Source: Chrysomallon squamiferum (Eukaryota > Animalia > Mollusca). From it: a stretch of 64,000 nucleotides of DNA. Within the stretch, counting starts at the first letter, position 1; every line of letters starts with the position of its first letter. This document shows, piece after piece, positions 46,601 through 62,940 of the stretch. The position numbers and the translations under genes are program-made. The stretch is taken from the NCBI GenBank assembly GCA_012295275.1, contig CM022672.1, positions 6,510,001 through 6,574,000 of the forward strand, written 5' to 3'. The notes under the pieces were generated by a model. That model did not search any database. It was not told the DNA's origin and worked only from the letters and a program-made list of their open reading frames with translations.

Positions 46601-46671
46601 CCAAGCCAGCTCCACCTCCTCCATTGTTTGGAGATGATGATGATGATGATGACCTTGACTGGTTGAGTTAG
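23128..46671 (+). CDS. FKBP15: FK506-binding protein 15 (WAFL) orthologue, ~1670 aa if the exon-31 frameshift is corrected
   Basis: 33 exons: 23128-23183, 23845-23942, 24351-24420, 24811-24880, 25250-25324, 25617-25715 (GC donor), 26040-26192, 26429-26497, 26744-26887, 27383-27523, 27861-27980, 29617-29824, 30024-30121, 30520-30577, 31761-31924, 32593-32700, 33075-33169, 33655-33757, 34131-34302, 34759-34895, 35661-35744, 36082-36153, 36740-36892, 37398-37490, 37998-38204, 38578-38685, 39151-39331, 40175-40303, 41294-41908, 43638-43718, 44022-44887, 45862-45982, 46597-46671. N-terminus [12 protein letters not shown]...KLASLFGMD...[11 protein letters not shown]1-like region, FKBP PPIase domain, [16 protein letters not shown], long coiled coil, [16 protein letters not shown] and C-terminal [19 protein letters not shown] all resemble vertebrate FKBP15. 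Confidence 0.93.
26040..26887 (+). CDS. FKBP15: FKBP15 exons 7-9: FKBP-type peptidyl-prolyl isomerase domain
   Basis: [11 protein letters not shown]...FDSN...[38 protein letters not shown]...[11 protein letters not shown]. Confidence 0.95.
41294..41908 (+). CDS. FKBP15: FKBP15 615-nt symmetric (phase 1-1) exon with four GDxGN repeats
   Basis: gtgtgtacag|CT AGT ... ATA G|gttaga; open frame in register with the flanking exons. Confidence 0.75.
44022..44887 (+). CDS. FKBP15: FKBP15 exon 31, acidic and disordered, broken by an apparent 2-nt deletion at ~44535 (TGA 44537-44539)
   Basis: Two overlapping ORFs in different frames (43970-44539, 44481-44891); only the second joins in phase to exons 32-33. 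Confidence 0.75.
46597..46671 (+). CDS. FKBP15: FKBP15 terminal coding exon
   Basis: ttctag|GAT TCC AAG CCA ... [15 protein letters not shown]. Confidence 0.92.
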   Translation, partial: DSKPAPPPPLFGDDDDDDDLDWLS

Positions 46672-53292: not shown

Positions 53293-53330
53293 TATAAAAG
53301 AAGGAGAAATCGCCATGTCATTTTAGTACG
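53293..53330 (+). promoter_or_regulatory. TATA box (TATAAAAG) and initiator-like site of micro-exon gene A
   Basis: tataaaag at 53293-53300, tcatt/ttagt ~25-30 nt downstream, first donor gtaagt at 53389. Confidence 0.6.
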
Positions 53331-53384
53331 TGTTACTGTTTTCAGCTTATAAAACAGATTTTTCTACTTTTGTATTTTATTTTA

Positions 53385-53500
53385 ATGTGTAAGTATGGAA
53401 ATAGTAGTAGTGGTAGTAGTAGAAGTTGCTGTAGTTGTTATAATAGTAGTAGTAGAGGTAGTAATAGCATATATGCCGTGGTAGCAGTTGTAGTAATAGG

Positions 53501-53531
<31 letters not shown>

Positions 53532-53730
53532 AGTAGTTGTAGTGGTTTTAGTAGTATAGTAACAGTAATAGTAATACAGGAGTAGTAATAGTAATAATAA
53601 TCGTAGTAGTAAGGTGGTATTTCAAGTGATAACACCGTAGTAGAAGTAACAATAGTTAGGGCAGTAGTATTCATTGTAGTTGTAGCAGTTGTAGCAGTGG
53701 TAGTATCTGTTGTTTTTATTACTATTATTA

Positions 53731-53800
<70 letters not shown>

Positions 53801-54811
53801 TGACAATGTTAAATTTGTGCGCTCTTGCTTTTATTTTGTTTTATTAATTTTCCAGACTTGGTCAAGATGCGGTCCCTAGCATTTCTCTTTATTGTGATTT
53901 CTTTACAAGGTAAGCTGTTCATAATGTATATATATTTTTAATAAATGTTTTAAAGTACGTAAACCACAACACTGTCGTTTATTTTTTAAATAAAGTTACT
54001 CATACTGTCTTATTTGGTTTAGTTAAACTATTTGCAGAAAAACCTCTTTTTCTTTCTTTCTTTTTTTTTTTTTTTTGCTGTTGTTATTATTGTTGTAATT
54101 GTTGTTGTTATTGTTGTTATTATTGTTATTACTATATTATAGTTATTGTTTGTCTTTTTAGAAGGACAGCTGGTCTTTGTTTTCATTATAATGAGTTTTA
54201 ATAATAATAATAATAATAATAATAAATTTAATAATAATAATAGAAAAATAAAAAATAAAAATAAAAAAAATAAATAAATAAAATATAATAAATAAGTAAG
54301 TACGTAAGTAAGTAAACAAACAAACAAACATTATTAATACAGTCGACCCGCCTAAACTCCAGATATGAAAAAACGCAGATGCTCAAGACATTTATATGAA
54401 ATGACGTCATTTTACCATGTTATACATAGTCATAACTTGAAACTCCAATGTTATATAACACTTAGAGCTGCTGATTCGTACTGACTGCAGTATTCTATTA
54501 TGTGACACCACATAATTTACAGTATAATTTACTGTAAAAAAAAGAAAGAAAAAAAAGAAAGAATTTCGGACATTAGTTTGTGAGAACAGCGGATAAGGTG
54601 GTTTTACTATATTTCAAATAATAAACGCAATAAATGATATATACATATGAGAATGAAAATGGTAATTTGATAATACTCATGACTGGTCTGAAACACCATT
54701 AAAAAAAAAGAAAAGAAAAAGTTATTTATGCTTAAGTTTATATATTTAATTATTATTAATGTTGTTGTTGTTTATTATGTTGTTATTATTGTCATTGTTA
54801 TTACTGTTGTG

Positions 54812-54849
<38 letters not shown>

Positions 54850-55258
54850 TGATATTACTGTTGTTATTTATGTTGTTATTTTTATTATTGTTGCTGTTGT
54901 GTTGTAATTATTGTTGTTGTTGTTGTTATTATTATTATTATTATTTTTCTGTTGTTGTTGTTTGTTGTTTTCAATAATTTTCATCTTTAATTTCTCCGTC
55001 TTTCAGTGATACTGCAACATTCTGATATAATTTCAGCGGAGGTAAATTTGTTTCTGAACTTTTATCAAATATGTTCTTGTTTGATTTAGTCAAATACTTT
55101 AACTTTTATTAATATATATATATATATATATTTTTTTTTTTGGACTAAAGAAATACTTATTAATTTACCTTTCTCTTTTAATCTTTTGAATAAATTTAAT
55201 AAAATTACCGAACATATTAAAAGCAACAAAAAAAAAATAAAAAATTAAAAAATAAAAT

Positions 55259-55289
<31 letters not shown>

Positions 55290-55464
55290 TAATAATCTGT
55301 GTCTGTTTATCTGTATATCTGTCTTCCTATAGAGATACATACACATGGACATACTACATGCACACACACATTTGTCGTTAATACATACATACACAGGTTG
55401 TCCTGATGGCAGTAGGGTCGAATCTCGTCAGAGGCATCTGACGGGTTTGTGAGGTCGTGACTGG

Positions 55465-55544
<80 letters not shown>

Positions 55545-58149
55545 TGTTATCATTATTATTAATATACTGTATTAATAAATTGTTTCACATATTTAGATAA
55601 CAAAATTCGTTCTTCTAAAATTAGAGTATACGTTTTATATATTAACATTATTATTATTATTTCAGACCACCCAAACAACTTTTAGTCCTGTAAGTATTCC
55701 TTTTTTTAATATACAGTAAACTCTCATACATCAGACTACGATCTTAGCGGGTCCAAAATGTAGCGGTCTAATTGCTTTATGTCTGATTTCCTTCCAAATA
55801 CAGGATACCTTTTGAACATGTGCGATGGCTGATAAGGGGGCGTTCCAGGTAAGAGCAGCCTGCACAGATGAAATCACACCCCAACCACACTCCACGTCAA
55901 GCTTATCAGTGTTTAGCAAATGTTTTAAAAGCTTAGGCCGAAACGTACCGAATCGTCCATAAAAAGCTGTGTTAAATTCTAAGAAATTAAAAGAAATTAA
56001 TCAAACTTAAATTAAATATAGGTTGAATCAGTTGCATACAGGCTTACGTGTTTTTATGTTGAGTGAACTTGTCGCATTCAATAACAAAACGCAACGTGAG
56101 ACGTTTTGTAACAGGTTTATAAAGTACGTGCACACTGAATGTGCTAAGAGGAGTTACTTACTTCTAACTGTTAGTGAAGTTAAATACGTTACTGGCAGGA
56201 AGCGAATATTTCGCACGACTATAACATAAGATTTGCCAAAGCGTACCAGTTTGGTACGAACATACCACAAATAGCAGCACTGTTTCTTAATATGATCTTT
56301 TAGTGACAATAAGTGTTAACTTTTTAAATAAAACATTTGTATTAAGGAATTAAAATTATTAAACAAATATATTTATATGCAAAAACAACCAAAATAAAAA
56401 AATATATATGAAAAAAAGAAAAGAAAAAAAGAAATGAAAATGATAGTCTCTTGTTAAATACGATTTTCATTTTAAACAGTATCATTAACTTGTACTGTTA
56501 CACGACGATAGAAAGCGTAAGCAGACAAACATTTTTACTGTTACGTCTTCTAGTTTAAGAAATTAACTGGGATGTCTATAATACAGTAACCATGTAAATT
56601 TTAATATATATATATATTAATCTATCTATTTGTTGTTCGTGTATCTATCTGTATATCTATTTGTCTTTCTCTATAGATACATATACATGGATATATTATA
56701 TGTACACACACATTTGTCATTAATACATACATACATACATGCATACATATACAGTCCGCTTTCGTAATGCGGGCGAATGGGTGCCATACGTTCGAGTCTC
56801 GTAAGCGGCATCTGACGGGTTTGTGAAGTCGTGACTGAAATTTGTCCTCCTGCGTCAGTGCGTTCCCGAATATTGTCTATTTGCAGAGGCTATTCAGACG
56901 TACATAAGACAGAGAATATTCAAAATCATAAACTATATACATACATACACAAGTACACACATACATAGATACATACGTACATACATACAGTGAATTAAAC
57001 TTTAATATTTTCGTATCAAATAACAGTAATAAATTCGTTCTTCTAAAATAACAGTATACATTTTATACATTAACATTATTATTATTATTTCCTGAGGTTT
57101 ATTTTATTTCAGGCCATAGAAACAACAACTGCCAGACCTGTAAGTATTCGTTTTTTAATACACAGAAAACCCTCGATTTAACAGACTTCCTTCATACATC
57201 ACACTTCTATCTTAGCGGGTCACAACTGTAGCGGTCTAATTGCTTTATGTCTGATTTCCTTCCAAATACAGGATACCTTTTAAAACTATGCGATGGCTGA
57301 TAAGGGGGCGTTCCAGGTAAGAGCAGCCTGCACAGATGAAATCACACCCCAACCACACTCCGCGTCAAGCTTATCAAACAGTGTTTAGCAAATGTATTAA
57401 AAGCTTAGGCCGAAACGTACCGAATCGTCCATAAAAAGCTGTTTTATTCTAAGAAATTTAAAGAAATTAATCAAACTTACATTAAATGTAGGTTGAATCA
57501 GCGTTTTTGTACCTGTTTAGTGAAGTTACCGAGTTCACTCAACTTGTCGCATTCAGTAACAAAACGCAACGTAAGACGCTCTGAAAGAAGTTTATAAAGT
57601 ACGTGATTACGAATCAGCTAGAAGAGTTATTTACTTCTAACTATTAGTGAAGTTAAGTACGTTACTGGCAGGGAGCGAAACAAAATATATTAGGATATAA
57701 AATAAGATTTGCCAAAACGTACCAGAAGAAGTCAAAGATACCAAGTTGGTTCGAACATACCACAAATGGCAGCGCTGTTTCTCAGTATGTTAAAATAAAC
57801 CATCTGATATCTTTGTGATCTTTTAGTGATAACTTTTTAATTAAAACATTTGTATTATGGAATAAAAATTATTCGAACTGATCTGTCATATTATAATTAT
57901 ATTCACATAATTATTATCATTTTAAAAACATTTGTTGTTTAACTGATCTGTGATGTCAGCTGACAGACAGCCATTCGCTGCGTCGGTTAGTTCGTTAAAT
58001 CGAGGGTCTACTGTATTTAACGTATTACAGGTCTTGTCAGTCAATTTTTACTTATTTAATTATTTTGTTTATTCTTTGTTATTTCATATTATTATCATCA
58101 TCTTAAATAAACATAAAATAAAAAGGAAACAATATGGTTGTTGTTGTTG

Positions 58150-58187
<38 letters not shown>

Positions 58188-59732
58188 TTTTTTAATTAAT
58201 TTTGTTTATATATTTATTTTTAATTTATTTATTTATTTAAATGTAAGGACAACGGTTTAGAATTTATTTCCGACTAGATGATTTTATTTTTATTTTTAGG
58301 CAACGAACACTACAAATAATGTAAGTATTTCAGTTTTATTTTATTTTTATTTATTTATTTCGTTTACTTTTATTTATTTATTTATTTATTTATTTTATTT
58401 ATTTATTATTTTTTTGATTTTTTTCTAATAAAACATATTATATTTTAAAATTCGCATACACTTCAGTAATAATAACTTTTTATAAATTCTATAAAACTTA
58501 TTTTTAAAGCACTATATATTAAAAAAAAAGAAAAAAAAAAGATGCAAAATCTATTTAATGAAGAAATAGATAAAAACGGAAACAATGTATTTATTTATAT
58601 AACCAGGAACAATAACTGATATGCACAGCAAAATAATGAATTTAAAATATTAATGTTTAACAAGCAGATTTATCTCCCTTCAGACTTTTTAATTTTTTTA
58701 AATTGAACGATTATTTATTTATTCATTTACTTATTTATTTATATGTTTATTTGTTTGTTTGCCTGTCAGATTATGTTTTTGTTTTTCTTTAATTTGAATT
58801 AATCATAAAAAGAAAGTATTAAAATTTATTTCTGAAATGTTTATTTTCAGGTCGCAACCACTGTTGTAAGTATTTCTACTTTGATTTATTTATAAGTTTA
58901 AAAAACTCTCTTTCATAAATAATTATGTATGTATATATGTATGTATGTATGTATGTATGTTTGTATATGTATATATGTTTGTATATGTATATATGTATGT
59001 ATAGAGGTATGTATGTGTGTATGTATGTTTGTATGTATATATGTATGTATAGAGGTATGTATGGGTGTGTATGTGTGTATCTATGTATCTATGCATGTAT
59101 GCATGTGTGTGTGTGCATGTGCTTATGTTTGCACGCAGGTATGTATGGCATTGTAGTTTGTATATATTATATTTATCTATGCATGTGTGTGCATATGTAT
59201 TTAGGTATGTGTGTATACATGTACATGCATGTGTATACAGGTATGTCTGTGTTTGTATGTAGTCATATATGTATGTGGGTGTGTATGCATATGTATGTAT
59301 GTGCATGTGTGCTCGTTTTCTGATAACAGTGTTAATGTTATACTTTCTTTATAATGAATATTTTTTATTTTTTGCTTTTAGACGCAGGAAACTTCAACTA
59401 ATGTAAGTAGTATTCGAAATTTTGTTAAGAATTTGATATTCACATATGTGCGTAAAAGTATGTATTTATGTGTGTATATTATAATTTTAAATAGGAAAAA
59501 CTATTACTACAACAAATAATAACAATAACAGTTATAATCGTCATTATTAATATTATTATCAGTGTTATTACTATAATTTTTTATTATCAGCATCATAGTC
59601 ATTTGTATTATAATTATTTATTTTCAATATTCTTATTATTTATTATTATTAAAATTAATTATAATTAATTATCTCAGATATCATTATTACTACTAGTACT
59701 ACCACTATTACTACCACCATTACTACTACTGC

Positions 59733-59765
<33 letters not shown>

Positions 59766-59912
59766 CCTATTATTATTGTTATTATCTTCAAAAGTAATGG
59801 TATCAATATTTATTTATTTAATTTATTTCAGAACTCCGGTACTTTGAAAGGAACTGGGATATTTGTTTCATTTCTTCCTTTCCTGCCATTGATTTTGACC
59901 AGTATCAACTGA
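53385..59912 (+). CDS. Micro-exon gene A: 93-aa secreted, Thr-rich, putatively GPI-anchored mini-mucin
   Basis: Exons 53385-53388, 53856-53909, 55007-55041, 55666-55689, 57113-57139, 58300-58320, 58851-58865, 59382-59402, 59832-59912 join in frame to MYLVKMRSLAFLFIVISLQVILQHSDIISAE-TTQTTFSP-AIETTTARP-ATNTTNN-VATTV-TQETSTN-NSGTLKGTGIFVSFLPFLPLILTSIN*. All introns are GT-AG with strong consensus. AATAAA at ~60034 and ~60112. The start could be the second Met (53867). Confidence 0.8.
54340..54609. mobile_element. Degenerate TcMar/Tigger (MER2-like) MITE
   Basis: TA-CAGTCGACCCGCC start, internal gcagatgctcaagacatttatatgaaatgacgt similar to MER2-type elements, degenerate inverted end gcggataaggtggttttacta-TA. 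Confidence 0.45.
55396..55465 (+). mobile_element. SINE fragment, internally deleted
   Basis: ggttgtcctgatggcag...tcgaatctcgtcagaggcatctgacgggtttgtgaggtcgtgactgg. Confidence 0.65.
55666..55689 (+). CDS. Gene A micro-exon, 24 nt (TTQTTFSP)
   Basis: tatttcag|ACC...CCT|gtaagta, phase 0-0. Confidence 0.8.
56755..56940 (+). mobile_element. tRNA-derived SINE, 5'-truncated copy
   Basis: Aligns with 60340-60528 (gttcgagtctcgt..gcggcatctgac..cagtgcgttcccgaatattgtctat); followed by (ACAT)n. Confidence 0.75.
57113..57139 (+). CDS. Gene A micro-exon, 27 nt (AIETTTARP)
   Basis: tatttcag|GCC...CCT|gtaagta, phase 0-0. Confidence 0.8.
57163..58013. mobile_element. Non-autonomous Tc1/mariner-pogo DNA transposon (MITE), ~850 bp; truncated copy at 55714-56360
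   Basis: TIRs CAGAAAACCCTCGATTTAAC (57163) and GTTAAATCGAGGGTCTACTG (57994-58013), 18/20 match; TA flank on the right and at the left end of the other copy. Confidence 0.8.
58300..58320 (+). CDS. Gene A micro-exon, 21 nt (ATNTTNN)
   Basis: tttttag|GCA...AAT|gtaagta, phase 0-0. Confidence 0.78.
58851..58865 (+). CDS. Gene A micro-exon, 15 nt (VATTV)
   Basis: attttcag|GTCGCAACCACTGTT|gtaagta, phase 0-0. Confidence 0.78.
58925..59312. repeat. Degenerate (TGTA/TG)n low-complexity tract
   Basis: Direct reading. Confidence 0.9.
59382..59402 (+). CDS. Gene A micro-exon, 21 nt (TQETSTN)
   Basis: gcttttag|ACG...AAT|gtaagta, phase 0-0. Confidence 0.78.
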
Positions 59913-60310
59913 AGACGATGTTATTACCGCGACATTGCATTTTTATGAAGCTGACAGCGGTGTTAGCTGATGTTTAATTTTTATAAGTATTTTAAAATAT
60001 ATACAGAATTTTATATTACACTTCACAGTAACAAATAAACATGATAATGTATTTTATTGAATACGACAAAGCTGAAATATAGCAGCTATAATGTATCTAT
60101 GTTATAAAGAGAAATAAATATTTATTGTAATTTATTTCGATTGGTCTGTTGTTTTATATAACATTTCTGTAGTCGTCTGTCTGTGCATTTATTTGTCCAA
60201 ACCTATAAGCATGTGCGTGCATATGTTCGTACATACAAACATACATACATACATTTTACAAATACATGAACACATACATGCTACATATGTGCATTCATTT
60301 AAATACAAAC

Positions 60311-60528
60311 GTGGTTGTCTTGAAAGCAGAACGGTAACGTCGTTCGCCTTCGTAATGCGGGTGAATGGGTGTCATACGTTCGAGTCTCGTCAGCGGCATC
60401 TGACAGGTTTATGAGGTCGTGATTGGACTTTGTCCTCCTGCGCCAGTGCGTTCCCGAATATTGTCTATGTGCAGAATCTAATCAGACATTCATAAGACAG
60501 AGAATATTCAAAACCCTAAACTACGTAC
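60311..60528 (+). mobile_element. tRNA-derived SINE, near full length
   Basis: A-box-like aagcagaacgg, B box GTTCGAGTC, aaaccctaaactac tail; homologous copies at 56755-56940 and 55396-55465. Confidence 0.75.
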
Positions 60529-62048: not shown

Positions 62049-62138
62049 TATAAAAAGAATGAGCAACAGAAATGCTTGTGTATATATTAAAAGATTTTCC
62101 CCCTATCTTCAGGGTTCGACAAATACCGTCTTATCGAG
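62049..62138 (+). promoter_or_regulatory. TATA box and 5'UTR exon 1 of gene B
   Basis: tataaaaag at 62049, donor GAG|gtaaaa at 62139; aaaagattttcc resembles aaacagatttttc in gene A exon 1. Confidence 0.5.
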
Positions 62139-62449: not shown

Positions 62450-62465
62450 TTAAGATTCCAGAAAG

Positions 62466-62579
62466 ATGGTGGTTATTAATTATTCAATCACTTTAAAAAT
62501 ATTAATCTTCCGTGAGTATGTTCACAGCTTTTCATGATTTCCATGTCAATATTTGATTTTTGCTGGTTTCATACCTGTA

Positions 62580-62612
<33 letters not shown>

Positions 62613-62940
62613 CGTTGTTATGAATTATGTATCTATCTATCTAACTGCCTACTTATATATATTTCCATATATCTATCTGAATCTCTATTTATCTGCCTCT
62701 CTATCTATCTGTCTAGCTAAGTAGCCATATATTTCTTTATTTTTTAAATCTTATTGGTTTATTTATTTATTTTAACTTCAGTAATCATACAAATAACTAT
62801 TTGTTAGCTTGAATGTTATCAATATTCATACGAATAAATAATCTAAAACATTTTATACATTTTTTATAAAAATTAATTTACATTATTTTGTTTTAGTTAT
62901 TTTGGCAGTTTCATTTGTAAAGATGGATGATCCACCGACT
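62466..62940 (+). CDS. Gene B (5' part only): secreted protein with the same exon architecture as gene A
   Basis: Exons 62455-62511 (ATG 62466) and 62897-62940 give MVVINYSITLKILIF|LILAVSFVKMDDPPT|gtaagta. The signal peptide is split by a phase-1 intron and followed by a phase-0 donor. No further exon was found in the window. Confidence 0.68.

What the first reader, a model, noticed from the sequence alone, without database searches (positions are those of the whole stretch)
53293..60120. Hidden micro-exon gene encoding a combinatorial GPI-anchored mini-mucin (MEG-like architecture, CD24/CD52-like product)
Seen: DNA with no meaningful ORF holds nine strongly signalled exons that join into one 93-aa frame, between a TATA box and AATAAA sites. 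The product has a hydrophobic signal peptide, a ~38-aa ectodomain with 15 Thr + 2 Ser, and a small-residue site (N-N-S-G) followed by a spacer and hydrophobic tail. The ectodomain is built from five symmetric phase-0 exons of 24, 27, 21, 15 and 21 nt, all ending T|GTAAGTA, so any subset can be skipped in frame (up to 32 isoforms). Established: signal-peptide exons followed by runs of tiny symmetric exons define schistosome micro-exon genes, which vary by exon skipping; CD24 and CD52 are tiny GPI-anchored glycopeptides. Inference: this is a variable surface or mucus glycopeptide system that standard annotation would probably miss.
Basis: partly seen in the sequence, partly recalled or inferred. 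Interest (0 to 1): 0.88.

Follow-up and report, generated by a model that had tools for sequence, protein, structure and literature searches.

The report
Snail micro-exon surface mini-mucin gene
A marine snail carries a spliced gene with no relative found in protein databases; five tiny threonine-rich exons build almost all of a short protein that is predicted to be sugar-coated and tethered to the cell surface, a gene design described mainly in parasitic flatworms, though mix-and-match use of the exons is untested.

Summary
Nine exons (53320-60120) join into a 93-aa frame (likelier 88 aa from the second ATG): signal-like start, five phase-0 exons of 24/27/21/15/21 nt (15 Thr in 36 aa), and a GPI-type tail. 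Five such cassettes occur against 0.12 in shuffles. One RNA contig (1 of 3 RNA runs, depth 2.5) covers exactly the 21 nt of exon 8 and the last exon, so the gene is spliced. Its length fits at least 4 of 5 micro-exons included; skipping is not shown. The organism is a gastropod near Gigantopelta aegis (neighbouring CTR1 78-91% identical). New: exons 4 and 5 come from a ~1.4-kb tandem duplication carrying a transposon remnant; the exons differ at 8 of 24 nt (5 of 8 residues) against 9% in flanking introns, a hint of diversifying selection. No homologue of the tail peptide was found. It meets a published structural definition of a micro-exon gene without shown homology to flatworm MEGs. GPI anchoring and O-glycosylation are rule-based predictions. 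The scan noted similar micro-exon mucin genes in another genome (e1-8665917). Verdict: real orphan gene, new variant of a known design; the combinatorial claim stays open.

The parts
53293..53300 (+). TATA box (TATAAAAG)
   Evidence: sequence; function inferred
53320..53388 (+). exon 1, mostly 5' UTR; start site inferred at about 53320-53325; holds the weak first ATG at 53385
   Evidence: donor T|GTAAGTAT; start site inferred from TATA spacing
53856..53909 (+). exon 2 (54 nt): likelier ATG at 53867 and hydrophobic core of the predicted signal peptide; phase-1 intron follows
   Evidence: acceptor 99.5th and donor 99.9th percentile of window sites; hydropathy
55007..55041 (+). exon 3 (35 nt): end of the predicted signal peptide; moves the frame from phase 1 to phase 0
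   Evidence: weak acceptor, good donor
55666..55689 (+). micro-exon 4 (24 nt, phase 0), first copy of the duplicated unit
57113..57139 (+). micro-exon 5 (27 nt, phase 0), second copy of the duplicated unit
58300..58320 (+). micro-exon 6 (21 nt, phase 0); carries the one N-glycosylation sequon of the predicted mature peptide
58851..58865 (+). micro-exon 7 (15 nt, phase 0)
59382..59402 (+). micro-exon 8 (21 nt, phase 0); covered by RNA over exactly 21 bases
   Evidence: depth table, arithmetic
59832..60120 (+). exon 9: 26 codons (small-residue omega candidates, 6-residue spacer, hydrophobic tail), stop 59910-59912, 3' UTR with AATAAA at 60034 and 60113
   Evidence: RNA contig on 59833-59931
55300..57860 (+). 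tandem duplication of a ~1.4-kb unit (about 55300-56360 and 56640-57860), each copy with one micro-exon; flanks about 90% identical
57162..58014 (.). element with 26-nt terminal inverted repeats (likely non-autonomous DNA transposon) just after the exon-5 donor; truncated copy at the same place after exon 4 (55724-56360)

Best explanation
This is a spliced, lineage-restricted snail gene whose product is predicted to be a short (about 38-residue) threonine-rich peptide, likely O-glycosylated and likely GPI-anchored on the cell surface, and which likely diversifies mainly by tandem duplication and rapid amino-acid change of its micro-exons. Shown: exon structure, open frame, RNA over exon 8 and exon 9, the exon 4/5 duplication, and the excess of exon over intron differences. 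Inferred: the signal peptide is cut after about residue 25 of the 88-aa form; GPI transamidase cuts at the small-residue site (N-S-G) at the start of exon 9 and swaps the hydrophobic tail for a lipid anchor; 17 Ser/Thr and one sequon carry glycans. The result would be a dense glycan brush with no folded domain, working like CD24 or the membrane-lining schistosome MEGs. Each micro-exon ends in T, lacks the usual exon-side donor match and carries a full intron-side GTAAGTA, which likely keeps such small exons included; full or near-full inclusion is taken as the main form, with skipping possible but secondary. The likeliest role is a glycocalyx component on an exposed epithelium that meets microbes or lectins (inferred, about 50%).
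For: Frame and composition. Cassette excess over shuffles. RNA contig X1 record 8: 340 nt, matching 59833-59931 from its position 242; X1 depth in the two bins over exon 8 equals 8+13 = 21 bases at that contig's depth, zero in the next two bins. 241 upstream letters fit full inclusion with 43 nt of exon 1, or one skipped exon; two or more skipped would put the 5' end within 17 nt of the start of the TATA box or upstream of it. Omega candidates 19-26 residues from the end, no charged residue in the last 20, best 15-residue hydropathy 2.1. Exon 4 vs 5: 8 of 24 nt and 5 of 8 residues differ against 66 of 710 intron columns, Fisher p 0.0014. Of 15 control donors 1 has T at -1; 0 of 13 FKBP15 donors have GTAAGTA.
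Against: No SignalP, NetGPI or NetOGlyc run. The divergence test rests on one exon pair; 7 of 620 overlapping 24-column intron windows also reach 8 mismatches, though 0 of 26 non-overlapping ones do; intron homogenisation by gene conversion would give the same pattern. No homologue found, so conservation is untested. Tissue and partner are unknown.
Confidence: 0.62

Rival explanations
1. Combinatorial MEG: the same GPI glycopeptide, but exon skipping routinely makes many of the 32 possible isoforms, varying stalk length and glycan sites.
For: All 32 subsets keep the frame, giving 22 distinct lengths, 0-17 Ser/Thr and 0-2 sequons; skipping exon 7 while keeping 6 and 8 creates a second sequon. 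Skipping is documented for schistosome MEG-1, -2, -3 (PMC4015677, passages) and for the O-glycosylated STP exons of CD46 (PMC2118878, abstract). Donors of exons 4 and 5 score only 3.8 bits against 7.8-13.1 for controls.
Against: The one contig fits 4 or 5 of 5 exons included. Symmetric phase follows from origin by tandem duplication and needs no skipping function.
Confidence: 0.2
2. The product is secreted, not anchored: a mucus or shell/skin matrix glycopeptide whose hydrophobic C-terminus drives self-association.
For: Schistosome MEG-8 proteins have a Thr/Ser/Pro-rich disordered middle and a hydrophobic C-terminus, proposed to form a mucus-like net (PMC4671649, passages).
Against: The tail has the full omega-spacer-hydrophobic order of a GPI signal and runs to the last residues.
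Confidence: 0.1
3. A gamete-surface glycopeptide (CD52-like role on sperm, recalled), evolving fast through reproductive rather than microbial interactions.
For: Fast exon divergence and absence from databases fit this; rapid evolution of mollusc gamete proteins is recalled, not tested.
Against: No tissue data; the RNA hit is from a library labelled metatranscriptomic, tissue unknown.
Confidence: 0.06
4. Chance splice-like motifs in AT-rich DNA, or a decayed gene.
For: 25% GC DNA is rich in T tracts; no database homologue.
Against: Shuffles, intact frame, and RNA covering exon 8 to the base and exon 9.
Confidence: 0.02

Closest known systems
Schistosome and tapeworm micro-exon genes (MEGs), especially Thr-rich O-glycosylated MEG-4, -8, -14, -29, -32 (PMC4671649, PMC8293314, PMC4413821, 10.1101/2020.04.08.031872; passages read)
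   Same: Signal peptide, run of symmetric exons of 36 nt or less, small domain-free Thr-rich product, transposon-associated exon duplication (reported for MEG-3.1), fast amino-acid change.
   Different: Host is a gastropod, not a parasitic flatworm; predicted GPI tail rather than a transmembrane helix or secretion; five micro-exons only; no sequence homology shown; skipping not shown.
Schistosoma mansoni polymorphic mucins, SmPoMuc (PMC2576457, passages read)
   Same: A 27-nt mucin exon duplicated together with its flanking introns as a unit of about 1 kb; introns highly alike between units.
   Different: SmPoMuc has up to about 20 units with introns over 93% identical and 15 exons; here one recent duplication, and the micro-exon part is nearly the whole mature product.
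Human CD24 (PMC9990587, passages read) and CD52 (recalled)
   Same: Very short mature peptide (30 aa for CD24, 38 predicted here), O- and N-glycan sites, GPI anchor.
   Different: No homology shown; the CD24/CD52 mature peptide is not built from micro-exons (recalled); anchoring here is predicted only.
CD46 STP exons (PMC2118878, abstract read)
   Same: Small Ser/Thr/Pro-rich exons encoding an O-glycosylated stalk, one of 15 residues skipped in frame.
   Different: CD46 has four folded SCR domains, a transmembrane domain and a cytoplasmic tail; here the stalk is the whole protein.

Membership tests
Micro-exon gene (structural class, definition in 10.1101/2020.04.08.031872) | At least seven exons | tested here: met
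   nine exons; RNA covers exons 8 and 9 only
Micro-exon gene (structural class) | [quoted passage not shown] | tested here: met
   5 of 9 phase-0 exons in one run (6 of 9 if the 54-nt exon 2 is counted)
Micro-exon gene (structural class) | Signal peptide, no known domain | tested here: met
   hydropathy peak of 3.0 near the N-terminus (no SignalP); no Pfam match for the last-exon peptide, the only part scanned
Micro-exon gene (structural class) | Protein variation by exon skipping | tested here: inconclusive
   one low-depth contig, consistent with 4 or 5 of 5 exons
Schistosome MEG families (by descent) | Sequence homology to a named MEG family | tested here: inconclusive
   no hit for the last-exon peptide; the spliced protein was not searched; such short low-complexity queries are weak
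GPI-anchored proteins | Small residues at omega to omega+2, short spacer, terminal hydrophobic stretch, no cytosolic tail (rules recalled) | tested here: met
   four omega candidates, 0 charged residues in the last 20
GPI-anchored proteins | Anchor attached in cells (PI-PLC release) | not testable with these tools
   needs expression experiment
CD24/CD52 family | Sequence homology | tested here: inconclusive
   no Pfam or database hit for the tail; works-like resemblance only
Mucin-type glycoproteins | Dense O-glycosylation of a Thr/Ser-rich region | not testable with these tools
   17 of 36 micro-exon residues are Thr/Ser; glycosylation itself untested

The most novel reading that the evidence does not exclude
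A free-living (possibly symbiont-bearing vent) snail independently evolved a schistosome-style micro-exon system: a GPI-tethered glycopeptide whose five micro-exons are skipped combinatorially and evolve under diversifying selection, varying the glycan surface shown to bacteria, with a second such gene starting 2 kb downstream.
Probability: 0.15. Interest if true: 0.8.

Novelty: new variant of a known kind. Interest (0 to 1): 0.55.

Why it matters
The papers read describe MEGs in schistosomes and tapeworms and tie them to immune evasion. Five searches of the open library (listings only) showed no title reporting a MEG-type gene in a mollusc; subscription journals are largely missing. A spliced MEG-architecture glycopeptide gene in a gastropod suggests the design is a general way to build fast-evolving surface glycopeptides that gene finders miss, not a parasite invention. 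It offers a cheap test (one amplicon) of whether symmetric micro-exons exist for skipping or simply result from exon duplication.

Tried and rejected
No whole genome is held, so paralogue counts and synteny were not possible. Runs X3 and X4 show no contig on the exons; contigs drop rare transcripts, so this is no evidence of absence. Homology searches used only the last-exon peptide with 14 or 4 upstream intronic codons: 12 candidates, none at E<=10 among longer proteins; none among 22-70 aa proteins; 2 hits among 1.84 billion representatives, both multi-stretch matches (8 and 6 stretches); the one inspected is an unrelated repeat protein. The ESM Atlas did not complete. Rfam gave only sub-threshold microsatellite matches. 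A candidate 37-nt exon at 56480-56516 was rejected (acceptor -5.1 bits, not a multiple of three). Paralogy of the downstream gene at 62049 was tested and not shown: 52, 24 and 341 of 500 shuffles reach the DNA scores and 444 of 1000 the protein score. A Ly6/uPAR-type gene was considered from the phase-1 signal-peptide intron and GPI tail (recalled) and rejected: the product has no cysteine. Two paper searches returned nothing. Supplements were not read; annotation tables of vent-snail genomes may already list this locus.
Full report
Setting. The window is about 26% GC and rich in microsatellites. It holds a CTR1 copper transporter on the minus strand (Pfam Ctr) and FKBP15 on the plus strand (FKBP_C and FKBP15 domains; stop near 46670). 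The last CTR1 exon is 91% identical to Gigantopelta aegis, the best of 281 hits, the next at 82-83%; two other exons are 78% and 83% identical. The organism is therefore a gastropod related to, but not the same as, that vent snail. G. aegis hosts endosymbionts (PMC7895826, search listing only); whether this species does is not shown.

Observation. The nine exons are present as described. Joined by coordinates they give a 93-aa frame, 282 nt with stop; the second ATG (53867) has the better context and gives 88 aa. The five micro-exons are phase 0, 15-27 nt, and encode 36 residues with 15 Thr and 2 Ser. With a splice matrix trained on 15 donors and 15 acceptors picked by eye from the neighbours, their acceptors rank at the 98.8-99.9th percentile of 6050 AG sites and donors at the 91-99th of 6600 GT sites. 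Five cassettes pass in the region against mean 0.12, maximum 2, in 300 shuffles; thresholds were set from the real exons, which favours them. None of 20000 letter shuffles reaches 15 Thr.

Expression. Four runs were listed, three RNA. In X1 a 340-nt contig of depth 2.5 matches 59833-59931 from its position 242, with 2 other letters. X1 depth in the bins over exon 8 is 0.67 and 1.08, which is 8 and 13 bases at depth 2.5, exactly the 21-nt exon, and is zero in the next two bins. Run X2 carries the same exon inside unbroken intron sequence (59330-59676). I infer that the X1 contig is a spliced transcript; the joint row is not printed because a masked repeat lies at 59677-59832. X3 and X4 show nothing on the exons. 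The 241 upstream letters fit full inclusion plus 43 nt of exon 1, or any single skip; two or more skips would need a 5' end within 17 nt of the start of the TATA box or upstream of it. This assumes the model's exons and promoter.

Product. Hydropathy peaks at both ends. Exon 9 begins with small residues (N-S-G), then six spacer residues and a hydrophobic stretch to the end, with no charged residue in the last 20; four omega candidates pass recalled rules. Removing both signals would leave 38 residues, 36 from micro-exons, with 17 Ser/Thr and one sequon. There is no cysteine and no domain. All 32 exon subsets keep the frame. No homologue of the tail peptide was found; the spliced protein itself was not searched.

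Evolution. Exons 4 and 5 sit in two copies of a unit of about 1.4 kb. An 850-nt element with 26-nt terminal inverted repeats starts 22 nt after the exon-5 donor, and a truncated copy lies at the same place after exon 4; flanks outside the element match equally well (63 of 67, 90 of 103, 22 of 24), so the unit was duplicated after the insertion. Introns differ at 66 of 710 columns (9.3%), the exons at 8 of 24 nt plus one codon indel, changing 5 of 8 residues, with 0 or 1 synonymous-only codon depending on gap placement (Fisher p 0.0014). This is one pair, 7 of 620 overlapping intron windows reach the same count, and gene conversion of introns is an alternative. All five micro-exon donors have T at -1 with GTAAGTA, against 1 of 15 and 0 of 13 control donors, which fits common descent by duplication and a strong intron-side donor that makes up for the weak exon side (inference).

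Comparison. The gene meets the structural MEG definition used for Hymenolepis (10.1101/2020.04.08.031872, passages). Schistosome MEGs include Thr-rich, predicted O-glycosylated and membrane-anchored members proposed to line the oesophagus (PMC4671649, passages), show high dN/dS and a transposon-linked exon duplication (PMC8293314 and PMC4350168, passages), and are described in schistosomes and tapeworms (PMC4413821, passages). SmPoMuc duplicates a 27-nt exon with its introns (PMC2576457, passages). CD24 is a 30-residue GPI glycopeptide (PMC9990587, passages). CD46 skips O-glycosylated STP exons (PMC2118878, abstract). Each element of the design is known; the combination in a snail did not appear in my searches. 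An earlier, unchecked scan note reports similar micro-exon mucin genes in another genome (e1-8665917).

Verdict. A real, spliced orphan gene of MEG architecture (about 92%), probably GPI-anchored (about 75%), with a hint of diversifying selection. Routine combinatorial skipping is about 25% likely on present evidence. New variant of a known kind; interest 0.55.

Noticed in passing
window:62049-62940 (+): A second gene seems to start 2 kb downstream with the same layout: TATAAAAAG at 62049, a non-coding exon to about 62138, a 57-nt exon with ATG (62455-62511, phase 1) and a 44-nt exon (62897-62940) ending T|GTAAGTA, together encoding a hydrophobic signal-like start. Sequence similarity to gene 1 is not significant; the rest lies beyond the window.
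   Followed up: partly
window:728-9750 (-) and about 23845-46670 (+): CTR1 (SLC31A1) and FKBP15 lie in divergent orientation. The same pair is adjacent head-to-head in human (recalled), which would be old microsynteny.
   Followed up: partly
window:55804-55848 and 57272-57316 (+): Both duplicated units hold a 45-nt candidate cassette inside the transposon remnant, with a strong donor (11.5 bits), modest acceptor (4.7) and an in-frame stop at codon 4; if ever included it would truncate the product before the tail.
   Followed up: partly
window:59388 and 57120 (+): Alternative acceptors: 59388 would shorten exon 8 to 15 nt in frame (RNA depth fits the 21-nt form); 57120 would give a 20-nt frameshifting exon 5.
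   Followed up: partly
window:59877: The RNA contig reads G for C, the first base of a Pro codon in the hydrophobic tail (would be Ala); one contig at depth 2.5, allele or error.
   Followed up: no
window:56754-56944, 60342-60523, 55418-55463: Three copies of a 190-nt SINE-like element (89-91% identical) with a TACA-repeat tail; two lie in the duplicated units.
   Followed up: no
window:63008-63650: A TA-flanked element with 21-nt terminal inverted repeats, likely a non-autonomous DNA transposon, in the intron after the second gene's third exon.
   Followed up: no
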